Part shown: positions 1,760-18,697 of the stretch, piece by piece
How the letters are laid out: every line of letters starts with the position of its first letter
Numbering within the stretch: position 1 is the first letter of the stretch
NCBI GenBank assembly: GCA_026014495.1
Contig: JAOZIF010000154.1
Location: 1-18,698 of the forward strand
Direction of reading: 5' to 3'
Length of the DNA stretch: 18,698 nucleotides
Origin: Candidatus Bathyarchaeum sp.
GTDB taxonomy: Archaea > Thermoproteota > Bathyarchaeia > Bathyarchaeales > Bathyarchaeaceae
Made by a program: the position numbers and the translations under genes
The notes under the pieces: model-generated
What the model was told of the DNA's origin: nothing
Seen by the model: the letters and a program-made list of their open reading frames with translations, nothing else
The model's database searches: none

Positions 1760-2488
1760 CTAAAATCTAGTTATTGAACATCCTGTCAGTGCGTTTGTTG
1801 ATTCCCTGCATGCAGAAAATTTTCCCAGTGCAGCTTGTGGTCTAATGTTGGTTGGAAACAAGCCCCTGATATGTAAAGGCAAGACATCGTCAAATTTGAC
1901 TTCTAAAATGATGAATTGATGCTCGTCGACGCGTATTGTGGATGTGTTGTGTTCAAAAAGAGATATTGGGCCAAGATTTGTGTGCAGTCCCATGTCAAAT
2001 GTGATTCGCACGTTACCCACTGGATGAATGTATGCTTCGCGGAGGTAATCCACAATTACCACTGGTCGAAGTAGCTTGTGGCGGCACTCAAGATAGAATT
2101 CGCGAAGAAGACTGTTTTCTGAGTTGGCAAGAAACGAAACATCGCCTGCCACAATTTTGTCGGCCTCTTCGCGGCTGAGCTTTGCACACTCTTTGTTAAC
2201 ATACTGATTGTATTTTGCTTTGCACTCAAACTTGATGAGTTTGTCGCTGTAGTTGTAAATGCGTATTCTATACTTTTTTCTTCGGGCAACTCCGGCCTGT
2301 TTATCAAAGAAGGCACTGTTCTTAAAGTCGTCAAAGTATAGACTTCGAATGTGATAGCAACCGTCAGGTCCCGTATGTGGGTCTGGTTTTAGAACCAAAG
2401 ACAACTTTTTTCTAAGCAGTTGGTATTGCATGAAATCAATTGGATACTTTAACTCGTGCCTCAGGTGTATTTTTTTGTGTGCTGTCAT
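1760..2488 (-). CDS. VTC-domain (polyphosphate polymerase-like, CYTH/TTM superfamily) protein, soluble
   Basis: Motifs RHELKY, IRSLYFD, KYRIRIY, FECKAK, YLREAY, RITFD, ILEVKF and GKF. No hydrophobic segment. Its ATG overlaps the stop of the upstream gene (ATGA, 2485-2488). Confidence 0.9.
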   Translation of the reverse strand: MTAHKKIHLRHELKYPIDFMQYQLLRKKLSLVLKPDPHTGPDGCYHIRSLYFDDFKNSAFFDKQAGVARRKKYRIRIYNYSDKLIKFECKAKYNQYVNKECAKLSREEADKIVAGDVSFLANSENSLLREFYLECRHKLLRPVVIVDYLREAYIHPVGNVRITFDMGLHTNLGPISLFEHNTSTIRVDEHQFIILEVKFDDVLPLHIRGLFPTNIRPQAALGKFSACRESTNALTGCSITRF

Positions 2489-3207
2489 TGGTTTCTCATC
2501 CTTGTGCTTATTCTACCAATAAACACCACAGAAAATGCCACAACAAAAACCAGAATAATGAGTATAGAAACTGCCCAAACAGAGGTTTTGGCGTCACCCG
2601 TAGGGTCTTGGTTGGCTGAGCCCGGGGTTGATTGTGATAAGTAGTCCCAAGTTGAACTGCCGTCAGGAATTCGGCCATAGGAAACGTCTTGAAGCTGTTT
2701 AGTGAAAACTACCGAGTCGATTAAAGTCACACCGTCGCTGGCGAATAGTCCTATTTCTTCTCCATTTGCGTTTAGGCTAAACGTCGCATAGTTGTCTCCG
2801 CCGTTTGTGTCTGCCCATATTATCATGTATTCTCCAGAGCCAATGTATGTGTCCTCTGGGAATTGCCAGCAAGTGGGGTCAGCTAGGTTGTCAGTTAAGT
2901 ACATTCCACTCATGTTGATTGTTTCGGCACCCGCGTTGTATACTTCAATCCAGTCTGGAGAGTTGCCATCAGGGCTTGCAATTGTGATTCCATTGTCGGC
3001 CATGAACTCGTTGATGAACAAAACAGAACTGTTGTCCTTTTGGTTAGTTGAACTTGCATAAGCATCGACTTCAGAAAAGCTATCTGCACTCCACAGGTCA
3101 GCCGTATCTGTGTTGCTGCTACAGTGAACTACTCCAAACAGCAGTGTAGCTATCAACAAAAGGGCAAATAGGCTACTTGGTAACGCTGAATTTTTCGTGT
3201 GTACCAT
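2485..3207 (-). CDS. lamin tail domain (LTD) protein with N-terminal signal/TM segment and C-terminal TM anchor
   Basis: LFINEFMADN, DWIEVYN, MSGMYLTD, FSLNANGEEIGL, DVSYGRIPDG and STPG are typical prokaryotic LTD motifs. Hydrophobic N-terminus (LFALLLIATLLFGVV) and C-terminus (VWAVSILIILVFVVAFSVVFIG plus a basic tail). GGGTGA upstream favours ATG 3207 over the track's GTG 3219. Confidence 0.85.
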   Translation of the reverse strand: MVHTKNSALPSSLFALLLIATLLFGVVHCSSNTDTADLWSADSFSEVDAYASSTNQKDNSSVLFINEFMADNGITIASPDGNSPDWIEVYNAGAETINMSGMYLTDNLADPTCWQFPEDTYIGSGEYMIIWADTNGGDNYATFSLNANGEEIGLFASDGVTLIDSVVFTKQLQDVSYGRIPDGSSTWDYLSQSTPGSANQDPTGDAKTSVWAVSILIILVFVVAFSVVFIGRISTRMRNQ

Positions 3208-3271
3208 GTTTTGTTTCACCCTTTCTTCACTATTTTGTTTGTTTCATGACCTTTTTGCTGCACCTGTGTGC

Positions 3272-3934
3272 TTAGGACACGTCAGCGTTGTAGCTGACTA
3301 GTGCTGCATCATTGACGCCCTTGATTTTTAGTAGTTTGTCAACCTGTGGGGTGTCTTTTGCTTTCATTCGAACTTCAACCATTAGTTCCACTCCATCGGC
3401 GGTTACGGTCCGTGATCTGATTTTGTGTTCTGGAAGTGCTTTTTGGATTGATTCTTCGGCTTGGTCTGTGTAGTGGACTACCAGAAGGTAGGGGTCGTTT
3501 GTGCGAAAGTTTGCTCTGCTTAGCACGAACATAAAAAAGCCGATTACTGGTGACCCAACTATTGCTATCATGTATAAGCCTGCGCCGCTGATGATTCCCA
3601 CGGCGATTGCCCAGAACGTGAAGACTATGTCTGCTGGGTCTTTGATGGCTGTGCGAAAGCGCACAATGCTTAGAGCGCCCACCATTCCTAAAGAGAGGGC
3701 AATGTTTGAGCTGATGGGTAACGTAACGAGTGTTACTACAAGTCCAGTTAGCACTAGTCCAATGTTGAAGTTTCGGGTGTAGATGACTCCTTTGAATGTT
3801 TTTCTGTATACGTAGAATATGAAAAGAGTCACTGTGAATGTGATAATTAGACTCAAAAGCACTCGGTCAACGGTGAGTGATTGGTATGCATTAACAGGGT
3901 TCATGAATTCGTCAATTAATTCTTCTAAGGTCAT
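3272..3934 (-). CDS. DUF4956-family membrane protein (several TM helices plus small C-terminal soluble domain)
   Basis: Signature SNIALSLGMVGALSIVRFRTAIKDPADIVFTFWAIAVGIISGAG; 4-5 hydrophobic segments followed by a hydrophilic beta/alpha C-terminal domain. Confidence 0.88.
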   Translation of the reverse strand: MTLEELIDEFMNPVNAYQSLTVDRVLLSLIITFTVTLFIFYVYRKTFKGVIYTRNFNIGLVLTGLVVTLVTLPISSNIALSLGMVGALSIVRFRTAIKDPADIVFTFWAIAVGIISGAGLYMIAIVGSPVIGFFMFVLSRANFRTNDPYLLVVHYTDQAEESIQKALPEHKIRSRTVTADGVELMVEVRMKAKDTPQVDKLLKIKGVNDAALVSYNADVS

Positions 3935-3963
3935 GTTTCATCCTTTTCGTCAATTCGCAACTA

Positions 3964-3974
3964 TTTATATTAAA
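3964..3974 (-). promoter_or_regulatory. putative TATA box for the DUF4956-LTD-VTC operon
   Basis: Minus strand reads AAAAACTC-TTTAATATAAA about 30 nt upstream of the ATG at 3934; AAAAGGA precedes the start. Confidence 0.55.
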
Positions 3975-4152
3975 GAGTTTTTCAGAATTGAGCCCAAATT
4001 TTTTCTAGTTGTTATAGTTTCAACCCAAACTATGTAACCTATAGTAAAACGTGAGAGGCAAACGAGTTTTTAATTAACGCTTAGTTTGAAATTTTCCAAA
4101 GTCTGCAGTGGCTTATTTTTTGCTAATTCGGGTTAGACTTGTGATAGATTCT

Positions 4153-4170
4153 GAAAAACTGTTTTATAAA
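4153..4170 (+). promoter_or_regulatory. putative BRE/TATA promoter for the Zn-ribbon and beta-helix genes
   Basis: GAAAAA-CTG-TTTTATAAA, ending 32 nt before the ATG at 4203. Confidence 0.6.
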
Positions 4171-4202
4171 AAATCGCTGTTGGATGATTGTAAATTACCT
4201 AA

Positions 4203-4466
4203 ATGTCCAAAAAAGAGGAGACTAAACAAGTGAAACAACAGTTGATGTATCTGATTGATTTATCTCGAATTCAAGGAAACGGAGATTTTCTATGTCCAAA
4301 ATGTGGAGTAACAATATCCCCAGACGATGAAACAGAGGACACCTATTGTATCGTAAACACAAAAGTTAGAAACAACGAATTAGTCGAACTGACGATTCAA
4401 TGCCAAAAATGCAGAAGTAAAATTCGGGTAATTGGTTTCTCCATACTTGATGTGGTGGCTAAGTGA
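4203..4466 (+). CDS. small Zn-ribbon-like hypothetical protein (CxxC...CxxC)
   Basis: CPKC and CQKC pairs separated by about 32 residues with beta-strand character; TATA box upstream. Confidence 0.8.
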   Translation: MSKKEETKQVKQQLMYLIDLSRIQGNGDFLCPKCGVTISPDDETEDTYCIVNTKVRNNELVELTIQCQKCRSKIRVIGFSILDVVAK

Positions 4467-6418
4467 AAATCATGATGAAAAAAAATACAATTATGGTCAT
4501 TGGAGCTGTCTGTATCCTAGTAATAGCTGCATCTGTTATCACTTTAAACTGGAATGCTGATAACAGCAACAGTATAACCGATGATATTACAGCTGATGAT
4601 AGTACAAACACTCCAAGCAATTCGGACACAACTACAGATGATACACCTACTGCGACCGAACCTGACACAACTAACGATAATATTGATGACGATTCCAATA
4701 CTACACCTGACACATCCAGCGACACTGATCAGTCATCTTCAAGTTCAACCAGCGAGTTTTCAAGCACCAGCGTAGCTGAAGCGCTGGCAGACAATAAAGA
4801 TGACCATGACGATAATGACGATTATCTTTGGGATAGCTCCGATGTCATTGCAGTAACGTTGAATACAAACTCCATTAGTGTCGCCGATGAAACAGGTGTC
4901 ATAATCGATGGAACGACACTAACAATTACATCTGCAGGAACCTACAGCATAAGCGGTACTTTGAATGATGGACAAATAATCGTAGATACCAGTGACGAGG
5001 ATGTTGTGAGACTTATTTTAAACGACGCCACAATCAGCAGCACTACAAACGCCCCTATCTATGTTGCAAACGCAGACAAAACAGTAATTGTACTTGCCGA
5101 TGGCACACAAAATTATCTAACAGACAACAAAAACAATCAAGAAAACAGTACAATTCTTAGCAAAGACGACCTTACCATCTGCGGCGATGGCTCGCTTACA
5201 GTTACCGCAAACACTAACAACGGTATTGAAAGCAATGACGGACTTGTAATAAAAAGCGGGACAATTACAGTAACTTCAGTTGATGACGGGATTTTAGGTA
5301 AAGACTATCTGGTGATTAAAGGCGGAGACATAACAATAAACTCGGTTGGCGACGGATTAAAGTCTAGTAACGACGAAGAGCAAGACAAAGGATACATCTA
5401 CATTGAAGACGGCACAATAACAATCACTTCAACACAAGGAGACGCGATTACTGCACAAACCGACCTATTGATAGCTGGCGGAACATTCACGTTAACAAGC
5501 GGCGGCGGAAGTAGTGCATATGCAACTGACCTCCTGTCCACTAAAGGACTAAAATCTGCCGTCAATATAGTTATAGACGGTGGAGATTTTACAATCAGTT
5601 CTTCTGATGACGCTATTCACTCAAATGATTTAATTATAATAAATAGCGGCACATTTGACATTTCTACTGGAGATGACGGCATACACGCAGACACGTCACT
5701 GGAAATCAACGGCGGAACATTTGACATAACCAAATCATATGAAGGACTGGAAAGCGCCTTAATCACAGTTAACAACGGCAACATCCAGATTGTTTCAAGC
5801 GATGACGGAATAAACATAGCAGGAGGCAACGACAATTCTGGCTTTGATGGAAGAGCACGACAAGACATGTTTAGCACTTCCTCTTCGGACACCTACTATC
5901 TGTACATCAACGGTGGAGTTATTGTCATAGATTCAGGCGGCGACGGAATCGACTCAAATGGATACATCGAAATGAATGACGGCGTGGTAATCATTAACGG
6001 TCCAACATCAAGCATGAACGGTGCACTAGATTATTTAGGCTCATTTAAAATCACAGGAGGAATATTAGTGGCAGTGGGAAGCTCAGGCATGGCACAGGCT
6101 CCCAGCAGCGTATCTACCCAATATTCAATAGGCGTAATCTTTAGCACAACCCAGTCAGCTAACACATTAGTGAGTATACAAACCGCTTCAGGTGAAGAAC
6201 TACTCACATTTAAGCCCACAAAAACATACCAATCAATAGTTTTCTCCTCTTCTGAACTTGGAACTGGCTCATACACAATATACCTCGGAGGAAGCTCCAC
6301 CGGTACACTCTCTAACGGAATATACGAAAACGGAACATACAGCCCAGGAACCCAATACACCACCTTTACTACGTCAGGCGTTGTAACAACTGTCGGCAGC
6401 ACTAGCAGAAGACGCTAA
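4463..6418 (+). CDS. membrane-anchored carbohydrate-binding-domain protein (Cthe_2159/DUF4353-like parallel beta-helix)
   Basis: N-terminal TM (IMVIGAVCILVIAASVITL), a D/T/S-rich linker, then ITSAGTYSISGTLNDGQIIVD, LILNDATI, LADGTQNYLTD, SKDDLTICGDG and many (S/T)xxDG(I/L) rungs. Start is GTG 4463 or ATG 4472/4475. Confidence 0.88.
   Translation: MKIMMKKNTIMVIGAVCILVIAASVITLNWNADNSNSITDDITADDSTNTPSNSDTTTDDTPTATEPDTTNDNIDDDSNTTPDTSSDTDQSSSSSTSEFSSTSVAEALADNKDDHDDNDDYLWDSSDVIAVTLNTNSISVADETGVIIDGTTLTITSAGTYSISGTLNDGQIIVDTSDEDVVRLILNDATISSTTNAPIYVANADKTVIVLADGTQNYLTDNKNNQENSTILSKDDLTICGDGSLTVTANTNNGIESNDGLVIKSGTITVTSVDDGILGKDYLVIKGGDITINSVGDGLKSSNDEEQDKGYIYIEDGTITITSTQGDAITAQTDLLIAGGTFTLTSGGGSSAYATDLLSTKGLKSAVNIVIDGGDFTISSSDDAIHSNDLIIINSGTFDISTGDDGIHADTSLEINGGTFDITKSYEGLESALITVNNGNIQIVSSDDGINIAGGNDNSGFDGRARQDMFSTSSSDTYYLYINGGVIVIDSGGDGIDSNGYIEMNDGVVIINGPTSSMNGALDYLGSFKITGGILVAVGSSGMAQAPSSVSTQYSIGVIFSTTQSANTLVSIQTASGEELLTFKPTKTYQSIVFSSSELGTGSYTIYLGGSSTGTLSNGIYENGTYSPGTQYTTFTTSGVVTTVGSTSRRR
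4556..4830 (+). repeat. low-complexity Asp/Thr/Ser-rich linker coding region
   Basis: DNSNSITDDITADDSTNTPSNSDTTTDDTPTATEPDTTNDNIDDDSNTTPDTSSDTDQSSSSSTSEFSSTS...DNKDDHDDNDDY; boundaries approximate. Confidence 0.75.
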
Positions 6419-11760: not shown

Positions 11761-12543
11761 ATGGGTAAAATTTCAGCTAAAGTGTTTGACCTAAAAGGCG
11801 AGGAAGTAAGTCAACTTAATCTTCCTCACATATTCAATACGCCCAGCAGGCCAGACGTGATAAAGCGGGCAGTAGTTACAATTCAGTCACACAAGTATCA
11901 GCCACAAGGCAGAGACCCAATGGCTGGAAAACGAAACACTGCAGTATCGCGTCATGCTGGTTTGGGAATAGCTCGTGTGCCCCGACTAAGAGAACGAGGA
12001 CAACGAGCTGCTTTTGCTCCCGGCACCGTAGGTGGCAGATCAGCTCATCCGCCTGTCTCTGAAAAGAGTATCAAAAAGAAGCTTCCGAAAAAGGAGATGC
12101 GCTTAGCTTTGCGTTCAGCAGTTGCTGCAACAGCCTCTAAAGAAGCTGTGGCTTGTAGAGGTCATATGGTAGATGATGTTCCAGACTTTCCTTTGGTTGT
12201 TGTTGATGACATCCAAAACCTGAAAAAGACCAAGGACATTGAAGAAGCACTAACCAATCTTGGAGTATGGGCAGACATCTTTCGCGTGAAGGAAAGCCGC
12301 AAAGTTAGAGCAGGCAAAGGAAAGATGAGAGGACGAAAAATGAAGCAAGCTATTGGTCCTTTGTTGGTTATAACCAAAAATGAGGGCGTGGCTGAGGCGG
12401 CTCGTAACCTTCCTGGACTGGATGTTGTTTGCGTTGAGAGCTTGAATGCTGAACTTTTGGCGCCCGGAACTCATCCGGGACGGCTGACTGTTTGGACGAA
12501 TTCAGCTTTTGAGAAACTTGAAACTGTCTTTGGAGGAAACTAA
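11761..12543 (+). CDS. rpl4: 50S ribosomal protein L4 (uL4)
   Basis: RPDVIKRAV, QPQGRDPMAG, APGTVGGRSAHPP, RAGKGKMRGR and LAPGTHPGRLTVWT; directly follows rpl3. Confidence 0.98.
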   Translation: MGKISAKVFDLKGEEVSQLNLPHIFNTPSRPDVIKRAVVTIQSHKYQPQGRDPMAGKRNTAVSRHAGLGIARVPRLRERGQRAAFAPGTVGGRSAHPPVSEKSIKKKLPKKEMRLALRSAVAATASKEAVACRGHMVDDVPDFPLVVVDDIQNLKKTKDIEEALTNLGVWADIFRVKESRKVRAGKGKMRGRKMKQAIGPLLVITKNEGVAEAARNLPGLDVVCVESLNAELLAPGTHPGRLTVWTNSAFEKLETVFGGN

Positions 12544-12544
12544 A

Positions 12545-12805
12545 TTGGATCCATACAAAACTATTCGTTATCCTGTTATGACTGAGGTTACAAGCCGTAT
12601 ACTTGAGTCCGAAAATAAGCTGGTTTTTATGGTCAGCAAGAGCGCTACAAAGCGTGACATTAAGCTGGCGGTAGAAGAGCTTTATGATGTGGCTGTTGCT
12701 AATGTCAATTCTACTATTACTCCTGACGGCGAGAAGAAAGCGTTTGTGAGGCTTACTCCAGATTATAAGGCAGCTGATATAGCCATTAAACTAGGTATCC
12801 TCTAA
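12545..12805 (+). CDS. rpl23: 50S ribosomal protein L23 (uL23)
   Basis: MDPYKTIRYPVMTE...NKLVFMV...KRDIKLAVEELYDV...GEKKAFVRL. GGAGG (12532-12536) supports TTG 12545 rather than the track's 12509. Confidence 0.97.
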   Translation: MDPYKTIRYPVMTEVTSRILESENKLVFMVSKSATKRDIKLAVEELYDVAVANVNSTITPDGEKKAFVRLTPDYKAADIAIKLGIL

Positions 12806-12828: not shown

Positions 12829-13551
12829 ATGCCCTCATCTACCAAGTTTCTTTCTGCTATAGTTTTTCTGTTAGTTATTGCTGTTTCTGTTGTCCTTTAT
12901 GTTTACCCTGAAGTAGTTTATAGCATTCTAATTGTTGTGATAGAATCTTTTCAAGCGGGAGGACTTCCTCTCCTGTTTGCCATGATGGTTATACAAGCCA
13001 TAGCCATCCCAATTCCATCCGAGCTTGTTTTGATTGCTGGCGGCTTAGCGTTTGCTTTCCCCTTTGGGTGGCTTGTTGGCGCATTAGGCTCAATAGTTGC
13101 GGCTATTGTAAGCTTTTACATCTCCAAAAAAGGTGGCAGAGGACTTGCCATAAAGCTTGTTGGCGAAAACGCAATCAAGTTTGCGGATAACTGGTTTAAC
13201 CGTTGGGGTGGCTGGGCTATTCTTCTGGGGCGCTTTGCACCGTTCATACCCTTTGATGCCATATCATACAGTGCGGGTTTGACTACAATGAAACTAAAAA
13301 AGTTCCTAATTCCCACTGTGATAGGCACTTTGCCTCGAACCCTATTCTACACTTATTTGGGAACATATTTGGGAGTAACTTTCGAAGACCTCATAGATTC
13401 CTACCGCACTACTGGACAAATACCCGATAACCTTCAGAACTTGGTTTCTCAGTTCAATTACGTTTTGTTGGCTGCTGTTGCAGTGATTGGAGTTATTTTT
13501 GTGGTATACACACTTGTAACTAGGCGGTATTCTAAGGGTAGCGAAAACTAA
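12829..13551 (+). CDS. TVP38/TMEM64 (VTT domain, DedA superfamily) membrane protein
   Basis: QAIAIPIPSELVLIAGGLAF, GSIVAAIVSFYISK, LLGRFAPFIPFDAISYSAGLT and TVIGTLPRTLFYTYLG; multiple hydrophobic segments. Confidence 0.9.
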   Translation: MPSSTKFLSAIVFLLVIAVSVVLYVYPEVVYSILIVVIESFQAGGLPLLFAMMVIQAIAIPIPSELVLIAGGLAFAFPFGWLVGALGSIVAAIVSFYISKKGGRGLAIKLVGENAIKFADNWFNRWGGWAILLGRFAPFIPFDAISYSAGLTTMKLKKFLIPTVIGTLPRTLFYTYLGTYLGVTFEDLIDSYRTTGQIPDNLQNLVSQFNYVLLAAVAVIGVIFVVYTLVTRRYSKGSEN

Positions 13552-13608: not shown

Positions 13609-14346
13609 TTGGGTAAACGAATTCGTGTGCAAAGACGCGGAAGAGGAAGTTCAACTTTTAGGGCATCATGCCACAAGCGGGTAGCTCCTGTTAAGTACCC
13701 TTCAGTGTCGGTCACTGAACAAAAAGGAGTTCTTAATGGTCAAGTTAAAAGCATACTTCATGACCCTGGACGAGGCTCTCCAATGGTCGCCGTGAAGCTT
13801 GAGAACGGAGACACATATTATTCGATTGTTCCAGAGGGTGTTTATGAGGGTCAGCCCACCCAAATCGGCGAGGAAGCTTCAGTTGAAATAGGAAACGTTC
13901 TTCCTATTGGCAAGATTCCTGAAGGAACAATGATATGCAACATTGAGATGTCTCCTGGCGATGGAGGCAAAATGGTGCGCGCATCTGGAGCATACGCAAC
14001 AATCATTACCCACACAGCTGACGGAACAATCATAAAGCTTCCCTCAAAACGAACAAGATACATCAATGATAATTGTAGAGCAACAGTTGGAGTCATCTCT
14101 GGAGCAGGACGTATCGAAAAGCCTTTCCTTAAAGCAGGCGCCAAGTTCCATTTAATGAAGGCAAAAGGTCACATGTATCCGCGTACCCGAGGTATCGCCA
14201 TGATTGCTGCATGTCACCCTTACGGTAGCAGCAAGAAAGGTGGACGCAAAGTTACTACAGTTTCAAGGAATGCTCCTCCAGGCAAAAAAGTTGGTTTAAT
14301 TGCGGCAAGAAGTGCAGGCAGTAGACTAAAAAGAAAACGTGTATAG
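13609..14346 (+). CDS. rpl2: 50S ribosomal protein L2 (uL2)
   Basis: MGKRIRVQRRGRG, HDPGRGSP, LPIGKIPEGT, PGDGGKMVRASG, KLPS, RIEKPFLKAG and RNAPPGKKVGLIAAR; TTG start. Confidence 0.98.
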   Translation: MGKRIRVQRRGRGSSTFRASCHKRVAPVKYPSVSVTEQKGVLNGQVKSILHDPGRGSPMVAVKLENGDTYYSIVPEGVYEGQPTQIGEEASVEIGNVLPIGKIPEGTMICNIEMSPGDGGKMVRASGAYATIITHTADGTIIKLPSKRTRYINDNCRATVGVISGAGRIEKPFLKAGAKFHLMKAKGHMYPRTRGIAMIAACHPYGSSKKGGRKVTTVSRNAPPGKKVGLIAARSAGSRLKRKRV

Positions 14347-14791: not shown

Positions 14792-15031
14792 GCCCCACTT
14801 CTTAGAAAACGGGGAGCTTTGTTGTTGCAGTGTATCCGCTTAGTAAGCGTCTGTAATGTTTAGTATTAGGTTACATATCACGCCAGCAATTCACCAATTC
14901 TGTTGCTGGTTCAGCTATTTTTTGGCGCCTTTTCTTGTTTGGATAAAAAATAGTGGGTTCTTGTAATTGTTTTTGTGAGAAGGGATTTTATAGTACGTTT
15001 GTCCCTTCCCTTTTTTATCCTCGTGATTTGT

Positions 15032-16312
15032 ATGATGCATGAGCTTAGTGATTCAATTAGAAACCATGATAACGGCGGTTTTTTGTATCCCTGTTACGAG
15101 GAGAACTGTATTTCAAACATTCCAGGAACAATACTGGACTTGTTTAATGTTAAAACTAACCTGCCAAAGCTTCCAATTGAAGTAGACAATGGAGCTGAGG
15201 AAATCAACAAAGTTGTGCTTTTTGTGTTGGATGGCTTTGGCTATAACCAGTTTTCGCGTTACCACGAAGATAACAAGTTTTTGACTAAGCTTGCTGAAAA
15301 AAGCGAAGTTTTTCCACTAACAAGCATCTTTCCATCACAGACAACAAATGCGCTTACAACATTGAACACTGGTTTGACGCCTCAAGAGCATGGGCTTTTT
15401 GAGTATTACCTTTACCTTAAAGAGGTTGACCGTATAGTCAACACTTTGCGTTTTGAGCCATTAGGCTCTAACCTTCGAAATGAGCTTTTGGACAGCGGCT
15501 TTAAGCCAAATATTTTGTTTGACGGAAAAACTATCCAAAGCTCACTAAAAGAGGCAGGCATCAAATCCTTCACGCATATTTATGCCTCATACGCGTACAG
15601 CCACTACTCTAAATTACTCTTTGATGATAGCACATTTATTCCATCTTTGAAGTCTTCAGATTTGATTGTCACCTTAAAGAAAAAGCTGCAAAAAGAATCT
15701 GGTCCAGCATACTTTTTTGTGCATTTGAGCAATCTAGACACAATATCTCACGAGTATGGACCAAACAGCTACGAATACGGTGCAGAGTTATCTGCTATCT
15801 CGTATCTTTTAAACAAAGAGTTAGTCCAAAAAATTGATCCACAAACTGCAAAAGAAACATTAGTCTTGTTGACTTCGGACCATGGGAGCGTAAACATTGT
15901 TCCTGAACAGACAACGTACCTAAACGGTTTTTCTGACATAATCAAGAACCTGCAAAAAGGCAACAACGGAGAACCTGTTTTGCCCACTGGAAGCGCAAGA
16001 GACGTTTTCTTGCATGTTCAAGAACAAAAGCTTACGCAAACGCAGAAGCTACTTGAGCAGAAAGTTGGTCACAAAGCAAAAATTGTTGAAACTAAAGATG
16101 CGCTAGCTGATGGCTTATTTGGGCATGGGAAAATATCGCGTCAGTTTGTTGACCGCGCAGGAAACCTGCTGATTTTGCCCTACCGAAACGAAACAGTCTG
16201 GTTTGACCATTTTCCAAGCATACGCTACAACCCTGTAGGACAACACGGCGGACTAAACGAAGAAGAAATGCTCGTCCCCCTAGCAATAACTAACCTTAAC
16301 AATCTAAAGTAG
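15032..16312 (+). CDS. alkaline phosphatase superfamily protein (type I phosphodiesterase/nucleotide pyrophosphatase-like)
   Basis: VLFVLDGFG, SIFPSQTTNALTTLNTG..P.EHG (Thr nucleophile region), DTISHEYGP, TSDHG and GQHGGL. ATG 15032 preferred over the track's GTG 14975; no signal peptide from that start. Confidence 0.9.
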   Translation: MMHELSDSIRNHDNGGFLYPCYEENCISNIPGTILDLFNVKTNLPKLPIEVDNGAEEINKVVLFVLDGFGYNQFSRYHEDNKFLTKLAEKSEVFPLTSIFPSQTTNALTTLNTGLTPQEHGLFEYYLYLKEVDRIVNTLRFEPLGSNLRNELLDSGFKPNILFDGKTIQSSLKEAGIKSFTHIYASYAYSHYSKLLFDDSTFIPSLKSSDLIVTLKKKLQKESGPAYFFVHLSNLDTISHEYGPNSYEYGAELSAISYLLNKELVQKIDPQTAKETLVLLTSDHGSVNIVPEQTTYLNGFSDIIKNLQKGNNGEPVLPTGSARDVFLHVQEQKLTQTQKLLEQKVGHKAKIVETKDALADGLFGHGKISRQFVDRAGNLLILPYRNETVWFDHFPSIRYNPVGQHGGLNEEEMLVPLAITNLNNLK

Positions 16313-16618: not shown

Positions 16619-18697
16619 TTATTTTTGTTTTTTGAGTGCCAAGATACTGACTAGTCCAACGATTATGGCTACTATGACTGCCACGAGGATGACTAGTTCC
16701 ATTGTTGTGTATTGTGGGGATTCTGTTGCTTCTTGTGTTTCTGGAAGTTGGTTTACAACTGCTTGAGCTACTTCTTCAGCAGTAGGAACGTTTGGGTACT
16801 CTGGGTCTGCAGGTAGTTGGTTTATGATTTCTTGTGCAATATCATTGGCGCTAGGACTAGTTGGTAGGTTGTCTATGACATTCTGAGCGATTTCTTCAGC
16901 TGTTGGGTATGTAGTTTCTGGCGGAGGAGTATATAGTTCTGCAGGAGGAGCCTCTTCAAAACAGTAAACACCGAAGTTTGTGCTGGTTACGTAGAGTTCA
17001 CCGTTATAGGGTGTTGGGCTTGACCTTGACAAACCTAACTCTGCGTAATAAGAAAGTTTCTCACCAGTTAATGCATCAAGAACGTAGAGCACTTTTGCGT
17101 CTGTTACCACATATATTCTATTATACGAGTAAGTTGCGCCTTGCGACATAGTTTCACGTGCGAGATAAGTATACCATAACTCTGTAGCATCCGTTGCATT
17201 CAGACAGACAATACCATAGTAGTCATTAAAGTAGACTTTTCCATACTTGTACACGACAGCATCATAAAGAGCGGTGCCTGCAACTTGTTGAGGTGTAGAT
17301 GGATTATATCTGCCGTCATATTTCCATATCTCCTCGCCTGTGCTTGCATTGATGGCGAAAGTATAGTGAAAATCACTTCGCGCGTAAACAACTCCCTCAG
17401 CAACTGTTGGCGATGCGTATATAGCTGAAGAATACCAGTTGAAGTAAGGAAGCGTGAAATTCCAGATCTGGTTTCCAGAGTCTGCATCAAGCTTGATTAC
17501 TAGTCCTTTTACGTACGGAATGGCTGCTGTAATATAGACTTCGTTGTCGACCGCGGCTGGCGTAGCATGGACAGTTCCACCTGTTGCATATGTCCATATT
17601 AAATCTCCAGAGGATATTGAATAGCAGTAAACATTTCCGTCAAGAGAACCGACATAGAGTTTGTCTCCAGAAACTGTCGGAGAACTGCGTACAAGACTAT
17701 CATGAATCAAGCTATCCGTTGGTTCGCTTCCTGTCCATATCAAGTTACCTGTAGCGGCGTCCAGACAGTAGACGTTTCCATCGTCAGCACCAGTATATAG
17801 TCTGCCATCTACAACTGCCACTTGAGACCTCACTTGGTCATCAGTTTTGAACTTCCACAATTCCGTTCCAGTTGTGACATCGATAGCATAGATGTTACTA
17901 TCTAAACAGCCAACGTAACATATACCATCCACGAGGGTAGCTGGAGATACAATTGCAGAATCGGCATCGAATTTCCATTTAAGTTTCAAATCTGTAGGGC
18001 CTGCTCCACTAGCTGAATTTTCCGGGTCACTAAGTAACATTGACCAATCTGCGACTTCACTACTGATACACCAGAGTTCACGTCCCTTGCTAAAGGAATA
18101 TTCGTATTCGCCCGTTTTTGTCGACGATACCGTGGGTATGACATATAGGTTTCCATATGCAATACATTGGTAATTCATTGGAGCATCAGTCTCCAGAGGC
18201 AGAGTCCATATCAGTTCCCCAGTGTATGCATCGTAGCAATTATACTCGGAATAAGCATATTCGCCTGTTTCATAGTCGCGATAGATGTTCTCACCCATTT
18301 GAGAGTAAATCTTACCATCTGCAATTGCTACTGTCCCAGGATAGGAGACACCGGGTCCTTTTGCTTGCCATATCAATTTGCCAGTTGTACCATTTACTGC
18401 ATACAAGTATGTGTCTGTGTTCATAGAGTATACAATGCCATAAGCGTAAGCTGTTGATGAAGAAAATGCGCTGAAGAAAGTTCCTGGATTGTAGGTCCAC
18501 ACTAACTCGCCAGTGTCAGCATCCCACGCGTACATGTTTCCATCTACGGTAGCATGAAATACCTTACCATCACCATAGGCCATTCCATAATTCCAATACT
18601 CTGAGGTGGTAGGTGTTTCCCACAGCAATGTTCCATTTTTGGCGTCATATGCTCTTAGAAACGTGTCCGAGCAACCTAAGAATATTTTTCCATCACC
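16619..18697 (-). CDS. PQQ-binding-like (BamB-type) beta-propeller repeat surface protein with C-terminal TM anchor; 5' end lies outside the window
   Basis: The frame stays open to the window edge (GDGKIFLGCSDTFLRAYDAKNGTLLWE...). At least ten (Y/F)x(L/I/W)(D/N)xxTGxxxW blade repeats; C-terminal ELVILVAVIVAIIVGLVSILAL-KKQK. Confidence 0.92.
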   Translation of the reverse strand, partial: GDGKIFLGCSDTFLRAYDAKNGTLLWETPTTSEYWNYGMAYGDGKVFHATVDGNMYAWDADTGELVWTYNPGTFFSAFSSSTAYAYGIVYSMNTDTYLYAVNGTTGKLIWQAKGPGVSYPGTVAIADGKIYSQMGENIYRDYETGEYAYSEYNCYDAYTGELIWTLPLETDAPMNYQCIAYGNLYVIPTVSSTKTGEYEYSFSKGRELWCISSEVADWSMLLSDPENSASGAGPTDLKLKWKFDADSAIVSPATLVDGICYVGCLDSNIYAIDVTTGTELWKFKTDDQVRSQVAVVDGRLYTGADDGNVYCLDAATGNLIWTGSEPTDSLIHDSLVRSSPTVSGDKLYVGSLDGNVYCYSISSGDLIWTYATGGTVHATPAAVDNEVYITAAIPYVKGLVIKLDADSGNQIWNFTLPYFNWYSSAIYASPTVAEGVVYARSDFHYTFAINASTGEEIWKYDGRYNPSTPQQVAGTALYDAVVYKYGKVYFNDYYGIVCLNATDATELWYTYLARETMSQGATYSYNRIYVVTDAKVLYVLDALTGEKLSYYAELGLSRSSPTPYNGELYVTSTNFGVYCFEEAPPAELYTPPPETTYPTAEEIAQNVIDNLPTSPSANDIAQEIINQLPADPEYPNVPTAEEVAQAVVNQLPETQEATESPQYTTMELVILVAVIVAIIVGLVSILALKKQK
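16742..16906 (-). repeat. three copies of a 15-aa helical motif in the propeller stalk
   Basis: PTAEEIAQNVIDNLP, PSANDIAQEIINQLP and PTAEEVAQAVVNQLP. Confidence 0.85.

What the first reader, a model, noticed from the sequence alone, without database searches (positions are those of the whole stretch)
1760..6418. Candidate archaeal polyphosphate synthesis-and-export/surface system: DUF4956 + LTD + VTC operon back-to-back with a Cthe_2159-like beta-helix
Seen: three minus-strand genes behind one TATA box, with LTD and VTC coupled by ATGA, and a divergent surface-anchored acidic beta-helix protein. Established: eukaryotic Vtc4 polymerises polyP from ATP and threads it through an associated TM channel. 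From recall, VTC, DUF4956 and Cthe_2159-like genes co-occur in bacteria such as Firmicutes, often with a CotH kinase, and their function is unassigned. Inference: this is a split prokaryotic VTC machine made of a soluble polymerase, a membrane partner/channel (DUF4956) and two outward-facing proteins that could capture the exported polyanion or Ca2+. It would have been acquired by an archaeon, where polyP metabolism is otherwise mostly discussed through PPK/PPX enzymes. Possible outputs are surface polyP, Ca-phosphate handling or modification of surface glycans/proteins.
Basis: partly seen in the sequence, partly recalled or inferred. Interest (0 to 1): 0.82.

Follow-up and report, generated by a model that had tools for sequence, protein, structure and literature searches.

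The report
Archaeal VTC–DUF4956 polyphosphate module, CotH-less
A Bathyarchaeia genome carries a version of a widespread but never-tested gene set: a yeast-type polyphosphate-making enzyme, an MgtC-like membrane protein and acidic cell-surface proteins. Here the usual surface kinase is replaced by a beta-helix protein, and the enzyme is the only polyphosphate synthase found in the genome.

Summary
Pfam confirms VTC (1760-2488), LTD (2485-3219) and DUF4956 (3272-3934) on the minus strand, with an ATGA overlap between LTD and VTC. Cthe_2159 (4463-6418) is divergent and is preceded by an unnoticed 87-aa zinc-ribbon ORF.

- **VTC:** it keeps the Vtc4 tunnel residues and its model is closest to Vtc4.
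- **DUF4956:** it is not Vtc1-like. It is a five-helix, MgtC-like membrane protein with an ACT-like tail.
- **Linkage:** VTC and DUF4956 are adjacent in every VTC locus that has enough flank. In 201 Bathyarchaeia genomes, 11 carry both, within 4.5 kb of each other.
- **Third component:** it varies between CotH+LTDx5, a short LTD, and Cthe_2159. A congener has CotH+LTDx5 in the slot where this window has one LTD.
- **This genome:** no hit for CotH, PPK1, PPK2, PPX or Vtc1.
- **Diderm relatives:** they add phosphate-selective porins and HlyD-type adaptors.

The best reading is membrane-bound polyphosphate synthesis with delivery to the envelope, but export is inferred, not shown. The bacterial cotH/VTC/DUF4956 trio is already in print with no assigned function. 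This scan has flagged the cassette hundreds of times on other DNA. I rate this a new variant of a known, unsolved kind.

The parts
1760..2488 (-). VTC-domain protein (242 aa, pI 9.35, no TM). It is a cytoplasmic Vtc4-like triphosphate-tunnel enzyme and the candidate polyphosphate polymerase.
   Evidence: Pfam VTC scores 112 bits against a cut-off of 23. A profile of 19 homologues hits the Vtc4 core 3g3q at E 3.8e-6. Invariant R10, K14, R74, R76, E88, K90, Y148, R150, R161, E196, K198 and K223 align to Vtc4 R196, K200, R264, R266, E279, K281, Y359, R361, R373, E426, K428 and K458. The AF2 model (pLDDT 80.7) has Vtc4 3g3r/3g3q as its top Foldseek hits (E 2.6e-12, TMq 0.68). Other TTMs score E 4e-7 or worse.
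2485..3219 (-). Membrane-anchored single lamin-tail-domain protein (244 aa). It has an N-terminal signal or anchor, an acidic LTD ectodomain and a C-terminal TM with a basic tail. It is translationally coupled to VTC by ATGA.
   Evidence: Pfam LTD, E 1.5e-15. ATGA overlap. The ectodomain has 27 D/E against 3 K/R. It is the only LTD found in the genome. Residues 67-242 are 54-56% identical to the last LTD plus TM anchor of the 1252-1289-aa CotH+LTDx5 proteins. Those proteins fill the same slot in L006, L011, L015 and the congener G160 (L026).
3272..3934 (-). DUF4956 membrane protein (220 aa), first gene of the operon. It has five predicted helices (22-140) and a cytoplasmic ACT-like domain (142-218), and is MgtC-like.
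   Evidence: Pfam DUF4956, E 3.8e-11. NCBIfam MgtC/SapB PRK09977, E 4e-7, and Pfam MgtC, E 0.023, are both below their cut-offs. hhalign against 15 archaeal MgtC sequences gives probability 82.6%, E 9.6e-6, over 113 columns. In the AF2 model (pLDDT 72.7) the C-domain matches ACT folds at Z 11 and MgtC C-domains 7qa5/2lqj at Z 8.6. Invariant residues include N77, G83, G86, R92, R94, K98, D102 and W108.
3935..4202 (.). Divergent intergenic region (268 nt, A+T-rich) with one TATA-like element facing each way.
   Evidence: Read from the sequence. TTTAATATAAATA on the minus strand lies about 27 nt before the ATG at 3934. TTTTATAAAAAA lies about 31 nt before the ATG at 4203. Neither was tested against chance. 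The sigma-70 and terminator scan is at background level.
4203..4466 (+). 87-aa zinc-ribbon ORF (CPKC...CQKC), first gene of the divergent unit. Its stop overlaps the listed start of the beta-helix gene. Role unknown.
   Evidence: Listed as an ORF. Only weak zinc-ribbon Pfam hits. A 61%-identical copy sits directly upstream of Cthe_2159 in L003, and a 45%-identical copy in L027 (same genus). It was not found in the more distant loci.
4463..6418 (+). Cthe_2159-family right-handed beta-helix protein (651 aa, pI 4.05). It has an N-terminal membrane anchor, an acidic Ser/Thr/Asp/Asn-rich linker (31-148), a beta-helix and a C-terminal Ser/Thr-rich domain.
   Evidence: Pfam Cthe_2159 scores 319.8 bits. 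Composition. Cthe_2159 lies next to VTC-DUF4956 in 20 of 86 VTC-centred loci. In the class sample, 8 of 9 genomes with Cthe_2159 also have the VTC-DUF4956 pair, 7 of them on the same contig. Of the 80 nearest Cthe_2159 loci across phyla, 40 have VTC and/or DUF4956 within 9 kb.

Best explanation
This is a Bathyarchaeia copy of the widespread prokaryotic VTC-DUF4956 module, in a CotH-less form.

**Shown**
- A soluble, basic Vtc4-like tunnel enzyme with the polymerase residues intact.
- An obligately linked MgtC-like membrane protein with a cytoplasmic ACT-like domain.
- Membrane-anchored, very acidic ectoproteins as the variable third part. Here these are one LTD, a short form of the CotH+LTDx5 protein seen in a congener, plus a zinc-ribbon ORF and a Cthe_2159 beta-helix.

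**Inferred mechanism**
- VTC polymerises the gamma-phosphate of ATP into polyphosphate at the inner face of the membrane.
- DUF4956 tethers and gates VTC, with its ACT domain as a ligand sensor. As an oligomer it passes the chain, or its product, to the outside.
- Outside, the LTD and the beta-helix hold or process it through bridging Ca2+/Mg2+.

VTC would be this genome's only polyphosphate synthase. The confidence given is for the whole chain including delivery to the envelope. My own estimates for the parts are about 0.9 for module identity, about 0.6 for polyP synthesis and about 0.35 for export.
For: **VTC identity.** Pfam, conserved residues, and a fold closest to Vtc4. Vtc4 R264A/R266A/E426N is the published catalytically impaired mutant (PMC9911596). 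All three positions are invariant here.

**Linkage**
- DUF4956 is adjacent to VTC in every one of the VTC loci that has enough flank.
- In 201 genomes of the class, VTC is in 12 and DUF4956 in 13. Eleven genomes have both, on one contig, within 4.5 kb.

**Compartments.** The module joins a cytoplasmic enzyme, a membrane protein and ectoproteins with signal or anchor segments.

**Envelope partners**
- CotH occurs in 35 loci and Cthe_2159 in 20 of 86 VTC-centred loci, never both in one of those loci.
- All 4 CotH genes in the class sample lie beside DUF4956; in G154, G160 and G166 they sit between DUF4956 and VTC, while G168's contig holds no VTC.
- 8 of 9 genomes with Cthe_2159 have the pair.

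**Diderm relatives**
- A phosphate-selective porin O/P (E 1.6e-63) lies upstream of VTC in 4 of the 4 loci of the nearest bacterial group that have upstream flank.
- A purple-acid-phosphatase-like phosphoesterase lies downstream in 3 loci.
- An HlyD_3 adaptor (38 bits) lies in L178. Weak HlyD-like and OEP-like genes lie between DUF4956 and VTC in L140.

**This genome.** It is 93% complete and gave no PPK1, PPK2, PPX or CotH hit.
Against: - No prokaryotic VTC protein has been assayed in the papers I found, so polymerase activity is inferred from residues alone.
- DUF4956 resembles MgtC. Characterised MgtC proteins are regulators that bind other membrane proteins, not channels (as summarised in 10.1101/2024.04.20.589940). 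No pore is evident.
- Both ectoproteins are strongly acidic, so direct binding of a polyanion is unfavourable without cations.
- In Streptococcus intermedius, deleting the DUF4956, VTC or CotH homologue did not abolish Pel production or aggregation (10.1101/2024.04.20.589940).
- The porin, phosphatase and phytase-like partners fit phosphate import as well as export.
- Apparent DUF4956-VTC fusion proteins in the protein database are not real at the DNA level. None of 79 loci has a fused frame; the closest loci read stop, Shine-Dalgarno, ATG.
Confidence: 0.35

Rival explanations
1. Phosphate scavenging and storage. The envelope proteins capture or free phosphate from external polyanions. Phosphate enters the cell, and VTC stores it as cytoplasmic, membrane-proximal polyP. 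DUF4956 acts only as an MgtC-like regulator or anchor whose ACT domain senses a phosphate-status ligand. Nothing is exported.
For: - DUF4956 is MgtC-like with an ACT-like domain. Salmonella MgtC acts on phosphate homeostasis through PhoR (cited in 10.1101/2024.04.20.589940).
- Partners in diderm relatives are typical phosphate-acquisition parts: phosphate-selective porin O/P, a purple-acid-phosphatase-like phosphoesterase, and an SdiA-regulated-type (PF06977) beta-propeller with a faint, sub-threshold phytase-like hit.
- The S. intermedius authors also proposed that the polyP stays cytoplasmic.
- The genome has no other polyP synthase hit.
Against: - No phosphate transporter (Pst or Pit type) is linked in the window or in the loci examined.
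- It does not explain why a storage enzyme is so strictly tied to surface kinases, LTD arrays and HlyD-type adaptors, which belong to export systems.
- The window's neighbours are unrelated to phosphate, and the distant phosphodiesterase gene is not conserved at the locus.
Confidence: 0.25
2. Phosphoryl-donor supply for envelope chemistry. The module's purpose is to deliver a phosphoanhydride donor to an extracytoplasmic enzyme, CotH in most lineages, that phosphorylates surface glycans or proteins where ATP is absent. In this window the kinase is lost and the Cthe_2159 beta-helix takes the acceptor-side or processing role.
For: - CotH is the commonest partner (35 of 86 loci) and carries signal peptides and a TM anchor.
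- CotH and Cthe_2159 alternate at the same locus within one small archaeal subclade and within one genus.
- The window's LTD corresponds to the tail of the CotH+LTDx5 protein.
Against: - No CotH hit in this genome, so the kinase step cannot operate here.
- To my knowledge no CotH-fold kinase is known to use polyP.
- Cthe_2159 has no known phosphotransfer activity. The literature reports only binding of cellulosic and pectic polymers (10.1101/401869).
- The alternation is a tendency, not a rule. Two of 80 Cthe_2159-centred loci also carry CotH, and G160 has both on different contigs.
Confidence: 0.15
3. VTC is not a polymerase here. It acts as a tunnel triphosphatase or nucleotide-processing enzyme, and the operon has a role unrelated to polyP, such as signalling to the ACT domain.
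For: - The TTM superfamily includes triphosphatases and cyclases, and these appear further down the fold list.
- The prokaryotic proteins keep a Glu (E12) in strand 1 where Vtc4 has Thr. This is closer to the ExExK motif of hydrolytic TTMs (and my own knowledge of the motif).
Against: - The model is clearly closest to Vtc4, Vtc2 and Vtc3 (E 1e-9 to 1e-12), ahead of CYTH-type TTMs (E 4e-7 or worse).
- Every Vtc4 residue I could align is invariant across 19 homologues.
- The phosphate-selective porin linkage points to a phosphate-type species.
Confidence: 0.1

Closest known systems
Eukaryotic VTC complex (yeast Vtc4/Vtc3/Vtc1; PDB 3G3Q, 3G3R, 7YTJ, 8I6V)
   Same: The catalytic protein has the Vtc4-type tunnel fold and keeps R264, R266, E426, K200, K281, Y359, R361, R373 and K458 equivalents. 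In both systems a soluble tunnel enzyme is tied to a membrane component.
   Different: There is no SPX domain, no covalently attached TM domain and no Vtc1/DUF202 protein in the genome. The membrane partner belongs to a different family (MgtC-like with an ACT domain). The target compartment would be the cell exterior, not a vacuole. Activity and translocation are untested.
cotH / polyphosphate-polymerase / DUF4956 accessory genes of Gram-positive pel operons (Whitfield et al., 10.1101/768473; S. intermedius SIR_1592-1594, 10.1101/2024.04.20.589940)
   Same: The same VTC and DUF4956 families are adjacent. The membrane protein is described there as a four-TM, MgtC-assigned protein with an intracellular ACT domain. 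An exported third protein is present, and the function is unassigned.
   Different: This locus is archaeal, has no pel genes and has no CotH anywhere in the genome. A single anchored LTD and a Cthe_2159 beta-helix take the exported role. The gene order is DUF4956-LTD-VTC instead of the usual bacterial VTC-DUF4956.
MgtC/SapB/YhiD family membrane proteins
   Same: The architecture matches: a small helical membrane domain followed by a cytoplasmic ACT-like domain. The motif region GxGxxGA...W..A.G...G.G.Y aligns. JGI names DUF4956 homologues 'YhiD'.
   Different: Scores are below the family cut-offs (Pfam 15.5 bits against 31.4; NCBIfam 29.9 against 214). DUF4956 has its own invariant R92/R94/K98/D102 patch. 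The genome also has a separate short true MgtC on another contig. MgtC is not known to pair with a TTM enzyme.
Cthe_2159 of Clostridium thermocellum (beta-helix, PL9-like; Close et al. 2014, as cited in 10.1101/401869)
   Same: Strong Pfam membership (319.8 bits). It is an extracytoplasmic beta-helix.
   Different: Here it is membrane-anchored through an acidic linker and genetically tied to VTC-DUF4956. I found no paper that links Cthe_2159 with VTC or DUF4956.

Membership tests
Vtc4-type TTM polyphosphate polymerase (Pfam VTC, PF09359) | Match to the VTC domain model above the curated cut-off | tested here: met
   112.4 bits against a cut-off of 23, covering profile positions 2-230 of 235.
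Vtc4-type TTM polyphosphate polymerase (Pfam VTC, PF09359) | Tunnel fold closest to Vtc4 rather than to other TTMs | tested here: met
   The AF2 model has pLDDT 80.7. Its top Foldseek hits are 3g3r, 5iiq, 3g3q and 8i6v at E 2.6e-12 to 1e-10. CYTH-type TTMs score E 4e-7 or worse.
Vtc4-type TTM polyphosphate polymerase (Pfam VTC, PF09359) | Catalytic and tunnel residues (Vtc4 K200, R264, R266, K281, Y359, R361, R373, E426, K458) | tested here: met
   All equivalents are invariant in 19 homologues and align in the profile hit to 3g3q. The R264/R266/E426 mutant is catalytically impaired (PMC9911596).
Vtc4-type TTM polyphosphate polymerase (Pfam VTC, PF09359) | Synthesis of polyP from ATP | not testable with these tools
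   Needs an enzyme assay. I found no assay of any prokaryotic VTC protein in the papers searched.
Eukaryotic VTC complex | Vtc1-type (DUF202) TM channel subunits and an SPX regulatory domain | tested here: not met
   The protein is 242 aa with only the VTC domain. PF02656 gave no hit in the 93%-complete genome.
Prokaryotic cotH/VTC/DUF4956 cassette (pel accessory group) | VTC gene adjacent to a DUF4956 gene | tested here: met
   They share an operon in the window. The pair is adjacent in all VTC loci that have enough flank.
Prokaryotic cotH/VTC/DUF4956 cassette (pel accessory group) | Exported CotH kinase in the cassette | tested here: not met
   No CotH hit in the window or the genome. The congener G160 has CotH+LTDx5 in the same slot.
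Prokaryotic cotH/VTC/DUF4956 cassette (pel accessory group) | Contiguity with a pelDEA(DA)FG operon | tested here: not met
   No pel-type genes are among the window's ORFs. The neighbours are an M20 peptidase, HTH regulators, a PAS protein and ribosomal protein genes.
MgtC/SapB family | Match to the family models above the curated cut-offs | tested here: not met
   Pfam MgtC scores 15.5 bits against 31.4. NCBIfam PRK09977 scores 29.9 against 214.
MgtC/SapB family | Homologous membrane domain by profile-profile comparison | tested here: inconclusive
   hhalign gives probability 82.6%, E 9.6e-6, over 113 columns against 15 archaeal MgtC sequences. Against only the five long forms it gives 6%.
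MgtC/SapB family | C-terminal ACT-like cytoplasmic domain | tested here: met
   Residues 142-218 match ACT folds at Z 9-11 and MgtC C-domains 7qa5/2lqj at Z 8.6. Foldseek gives rmsd 2.0 A over 83 columns for 2lqj.
Cthe_2159 beta-helix family (PF14262) | Match above the curated cut-off | tested here: met
   319.8 bits against 25.8, with the full 262-position profile matched.
Lamin tail domain (PF00932) | Match above the curated cut-off | tested here: met
   57.9 bits against 34.3. It is the only LTD found in the genome.

The most novel reading that the evidence does not exclude
VTC plus DUF4956 is a prokaryotic synthase-translocase, distinct from PPK, that extrudes polyphosphate. In CotH-less archaea such as this one, the chain is deposited as a cation-bridged polyP layer held or trimmed by the acidic LTD and Cthe_2159 beta-helix. 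Cthe_2159 proteins would then be polyP or Ca-polyP handling proteins rather than carbohydrate binders, and MgtC-type proteins would descend from a polyanion conduit.
Probability: 0.2. Interest if true: 0.85.

Novelty: new variant of a known kind. Interest (0 to 1): 0.5.

Why it matters
Polyphosphate synthesis in prokaryotes is attributed to PPK1 and PPK2. Many archaea lack both, and their source of polyP is an open question.

This 93%-complete Bathyarchaeia genome gave no PPK1, PPK2 or PPX hit. It does have a Vtc4-like enzyme with every tunnel residue intact, so the module is a concrete candidate for that missing synthase.

The variable third component ties a cytoplasmic phosphoanhydride enzyme to the envelope in both domains of life. 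It can be a CotH kinase, LTD arrays, a Cthe_2159 beta-helix, a phosphate porin or an HlyD adaptor. If export is real, this would be a new way of bringing phosphate chemistry outside the cell. It would also give a function to three large families of unknown role: DUF4956, prokaryotic VTC and Cthe_2159.

The kind is already noted in print and has been seen many times in this scan. The value of this window is the CotH-less archaeal variant and the context evidence, not a first discovery.

Tried and rejected
- **Complex prediction.** VTC with DUF4956 scored 0.06 against a mark of 0.32. That is no verdict and counts neither for nor against binding.
- **Fusion proteins.** The protein database lists 458-464-aa DUF4956+VTC proteins and CotH+VTC proteins.
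  - I fetched 79 genomic loci for the DUF4956-then-VTC form. None has a fused frame. In the closest loci (L215-L223) the DNA reads stop, GGAG, then ATG 9-15 nt later.
  - These fusions are gene-calling artefacts, so I dropped them as Rosetta-stone evidence.
- **Single-sequence PDB search with VTC.** It found nothing relevant. The profile was needed.
- **PDB sequence search with the DUF4956 profile.** No hit. No solved membrane-domain relative appeared in the fold lists, which were filled by the ACT domain.
- **Sequencing runs.** No RNA holder was listed. The only holder is one sediment DNA run with 0.08 of the words. I did not lay it.
- **Window neighbours.** The M20 peptidase, HTH regulator, PadR, PAS protein and the phosphodiesterase at 14975-16312 are not conserved at related loci.
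- **Literature.** Searches for DUF4956, CotH with polyphosphate polymerase, VTC domain with bacteria, and Cthe_2159 found no functional test of the module.
- **Strict CotH/Cthe_2159 exclusivity.** Rejected as a rule. L154 and L171 carry both, and G160 has both on different contigs.

Full report
**What is in the window**

ORF listing and Pfam confirm three co-oriented minus-strand genes:
- DUF4956 at 3272-3934, E 3.8e-11.
- LTD at 2485-3219, E 1.5e-15.
- VTC at 1760-2488, E 3.2e-32.

A divergent Cthe_2159 beta-helix gene lies at 4463-6418 (E 1.6e-95). The LTD stop and the VTC start share ATGA. DUF4956 and LTD are 52-64 nt apart.

The 268-nt A+T-rich spacer has a TATA-like element about 27 nt before the DUF4956 ATG. 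It has another about 31 nt before the plus-strand unit. I read these by eye and did not test them against chance.

The plus-strand unit does not begin with the beta-helix gene. It begins with an 87-aa CxxC...CxxC ORF (4203-4466) whose stop overlaps the listed start of Cthe_2159. That ORF is conserved (61% and 45% identity) in the same position in L003 and in a congener, L027.

The rest of the window is unrelated: an M20 peptidase, HTH, PadR and PAS regulators, and ribosomal protein genes. None of these neighbours recurs at related loci.

The genome is a 2.19-Mb, 93%-complete MAG. A genome of the same order is a named Bathyarchaeia record (L079 is the same contig as G032:C1). The nearest homologues are labelled Bathyarchaeia.

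**The enzyme**

A 19-sequence profile of VTC homologues hits the yeast Vtc4 catalytic core 3g3q (E 3.8e-6). I converted chain positions to Vtc4 numbering by adding 185. This places K200 in the TTKYW motif.

| Window residue | Vtc4 residue |
|---|---|
| R10 | R196 |
| K14 | K200 |
| R74 | R264 |
| R76 | R266 |
| E88 | E279 |
| K90 | K281 |
| Y148 | Y359 |
| R150 | R361 |
| R161 | R373 |
| E196 | E426 |
| K198 | K428 |
| K223 | K458 |

All of these are invariant in the 19 sequences. R264A/R266A/E426N is the published catalytically impaired Vtc4 (PMC9911596).

The AF2 model (pLDDT 80.7) has Vtc4, Vtc2 and Vtc3 as its first dozen Foldseek hits (E 2.6e-12 to 4.5e-9). Hydrolytic and cyclase TTMs start at E 4e-7. 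The protein is basic, soluble, and has only this domain.

One difference is worth noting. Strand 1 reads R-H-E-L-K, so it keeps one Glu of the ExExK motif where Vtc4 has Thr. This leaves some room for a hydrolytic activity.

**The membrane partner**

DUF4956 is not Vtc1-like, and the genome has no DUF202 hit. Several lines point to MgtC instead:
- It gives sub-threshold hits to MgtC/SapB models: NCBIfam E 4e-7 over residues 73-208, and Pfam E 0.023.
- JGI names its homologues YhiD.
- hhalign against 15 archaeal MgtC proteins gives 82.6% probability and E 9.6e-6 over 113 columns, spanning the glycine-rich helices.
- The AF2 model (pLDDT 72.7) has five helices between residues 22 and 140.
- Its C-terminal domain (142-218) matches ACT folds at Z 9-11 and the MgtC C-domains at Z 8.6.

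The same MgtC/ACT assignment was made for the S. intermedius homologue (10.1101/2024.04.20.589940).

The invariant residues cluster at N77...G83..G86ALSI-R92-F-R94-xA-K98-D..D102...W108. By the positive-inside rule, and by analogy with MgtC, this basic patch and the ACT domain face the cytoplasm. That is inference.

Nothing here shows a pore.

**Is the association real?**

*VTC-centred loci.* I examined 24 and then 80 VTC loci from species-representative genomes, plus six taken from related genomes. DUF4956 is adjacent in every locus with enough flank.

*Class sample.* In an even sample of 201 genomes of the class:
- VTC is in 12 genomes and DUF4956 in 13.
- Eleven genomes have both, on the same contig and strand, 0.1-4.5 kb apart.
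- The exceptions are a weak VTC-like hit and short contigs.

The distribution is patchy: 6 of 87 genera, and 3 of 6 genomes in the window's own genus. The cassette is therefore accessory.

*The third component varies.*
- Among 86 VTC-centred loci, 35 have CotH, 20 have Cthe_2159 and none has both.
- In the class sample, all four CotH genes lie beside DUF4956; three sit between DUF4956 and VTC, and the fourth is on a short contig with no VTC hit.
- Eight of nine genomes with Cthe_2159 have the pair, seven of them on the same contig.

*Reverse test.* Of the 80 nearest Cthe_2159 loci across Chloroflexota, Bacillota, Desulfobacterota, Planctomycetota, Bacteroidota and archaea, 40 have VTC and/or DUF4956 within 9 kb. 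Twenty-six have both.

The alternation between CotH and Cthe_2159 is a tendency, not a rule. L154 and L171 carry both, and G160 has a second-contig Cthe_2159.

**The LTD protein**

It is the only LTD found in the genome. In congener G160 and in L006, L011 and L015, the slot between DUF4956 and VTC holds a protein of 1252 aa (L006) to about 1290 aa. That protein has a signal peptide, a CotH kinase domain, five LTDs, a TM anchor and a basic tail.

The window's protein aligns, at 54-56% identity, to the last LTD plus anchor of that protein. It is the short, kinase-less form.

On the tree, the short-form/Cthe_2159 loci (the window, L059, L027) are sister to the CotH+LTDx5 loci (L026, L060, L065, L004). 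The swap is therefore recent.

**Origin**

I built a VTC+DUF4956 tree of 77 rows (quick IQ-TREE, midpoint root).
- 25 archaeal rows form one group (SH-aLRT 91). They come from Bathyarchaeia, Methanomethylicus, a Promethearchaeota MAG, Methanocellaceae, and Thermoplasmatales and Halobacteria MAGs.
- That group sits inside a starred clade with six diderm 'bacterium' MAGs, then three 'Rickettsiales' MAGs, all among Bacillota clades.
- One Bathyarchaeia genome (G172) falls separately among Bacillota, but on a long branch.

This fits acquisition from bacteria followed by spread among archaea. The root is not inferred, so the direction is not proven.

The M. acetivorans control rings for VTC, DUF4956 and CotH, so archaeal carriage is not new in itself.

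**Evidence on direction of function**

The nearest bacterial group has a phosphate-selective porin O/P (E 1.6e-63) upstream of VTC. This holds in all four loci with upstream flank, at 46-86% identity to one another. An SdiA-regulated-type (PF06977) beta-propeller, with only a faint sub-threshold phytase-like hit, and LTD proteins lie downstream.

The 'Rickettsiales' loci have a purple-acid-phosphatase-like phosphoesterase.

Two diderm Cthe_2159 loci carry membrane-fusion-protein genes. L178 has HlyD_3 at 38 bits. L140 has weak HlyD-like and OEP-like genes between DUF4956 and VTC. This partly reproduces earlier notes of this scan on VTC/DUF4956/HlyD/TolC operons.

These contexts say that a phosphate-type species crosses the envelope in connection with the module. 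The adaptors favour export. The porin and phosphatases would equally fit import.

**This genome's polyP set**

There were no hits for PPK1, PPK2, PPX, CotH or DUF202 at 93% completeness. Absence in a MAG is not proof. If it holds, VTC is the only candidate polyP synthase.

**Reading**

The shown facts are these:
- The module's identity.
- The intact Vtc4-type site.
- The MgtC/ACT nature of the partner.
- The obligate pairing.
- The envelope location and acidity of the third components.
- The variant architecture.

The inferred steps are polyP synthesis at the membrane, gating by DUF4956, passage of the chain outward, and cation-bridged capture or processing by the LTD and the beta-helix.

The main rival is phosphate scavenging with cytoplasmic storage, with DUF4956 as regulator only. 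A polyP-fed surface-kinase circuit cannot operate here because CotH is missing. A non-polymerase TTM role is least likely.

In S. intermedius, deleting the three homologues did not abolish Pel production or aggregation. No phenotype yet guides the choice between these readings.

**Cautions**

The complex prediction gave no verdict. No RNA data were available.

**Novelty and score**

The kind is known and unsolved (10.1101/768473; 10.1101/2024.04.20.589940). This scan has flagged it in 768 findings on other DNA, including beta-helix and archaeal forms.

This window adds four things:
- The CotH-less archaeal variant with Cthe_2159.
- A within-genus swap between the CotH form and the LTD/Cthe_2159 form.
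- The absence of PPK-type enzymes in the genome.
- The porin context in the nearest bacterial relatives.

I rate it a new variant of a known kind, with interest 0.5.

Noticed in passing
window 12829-13551 (+): A 240-aa VTT/DedA-family membrane protein gene (Pfam VTT_dom, E 3.6e-26) sits between rpl23 (12509-12805) and rpl2 (13609-14346). It interrupts the otherwise conserved L3-L4-L23-L2 run.
   Followed up: no
window 4203-4466 (+): An 87-aa zinc-ribbon ORF is conserved directly upstream of Cthe_2159 only in the closest relatives (L003 61%, L027 45%). It has no family assignment and its role is unknown.
   Followed up: partly
L215-L293 (Christensenellales and other Clostridia gut MAGs), e.g. 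L215:6983-8374: The protein database holds 458-462-aa 'DUF4956+VTC fusion' proteins (P0126, P0141, P0155). In none of 79 genomic loci do the two domains share a reading frame. In the closest loci the DNA reads TAA, GGAG, then ATG 9-15 nt later, often in the same frame. The fusions look like read-through gene calls.
   Followed up: yes
L064:553-1833, L067:6326-7609, L071:1830-3197, L073:6479-7651: A phosphate-selective porin O/P gene, together with a conserved 209-aa unknown ORF, lies upstream of VTC-DUF4956. This is in the diderm 'bacterium' MAGs that are the nearest bacterial relatives of the archaeal cassette.
   Followed up: partly
L018:5854-7317; proteins P0121, P0124, P0135: Christensenellaceae-type VTC proteins carry a 250-390-aa Lys/Glu/Ala/Pro-rich, low-complexity N-terminal extension with no Pfam match and no TM segment.
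   Followed up: no
G000:C187:153-572 (locus L038): The same genome also has a separate true MgtC gene (Pfam E 7.4e-39). It is a short 139-aa form without the ACT-like tail.
   Followed up: no
L138, L141, L153, L154, L156, L163, L168-L171, L197, L198: Several Cthe_2159 loci have a weak VTC-like ORF (HMM E 1e-3 to 1e-7; stop-to-stop frames of 258-372 codons) 1-3 kb away, mostly without a detectable DUF4956 (L153 has a weak one). This may be a second, divergent tunnel-enzyme partner.
   Followed up: no
window 16619-18697 (-): A PQQ/BamB-like beta-propeller protein of at least 692 aa runs off the window end. It is unrelated to the finding.
   Followed up: no
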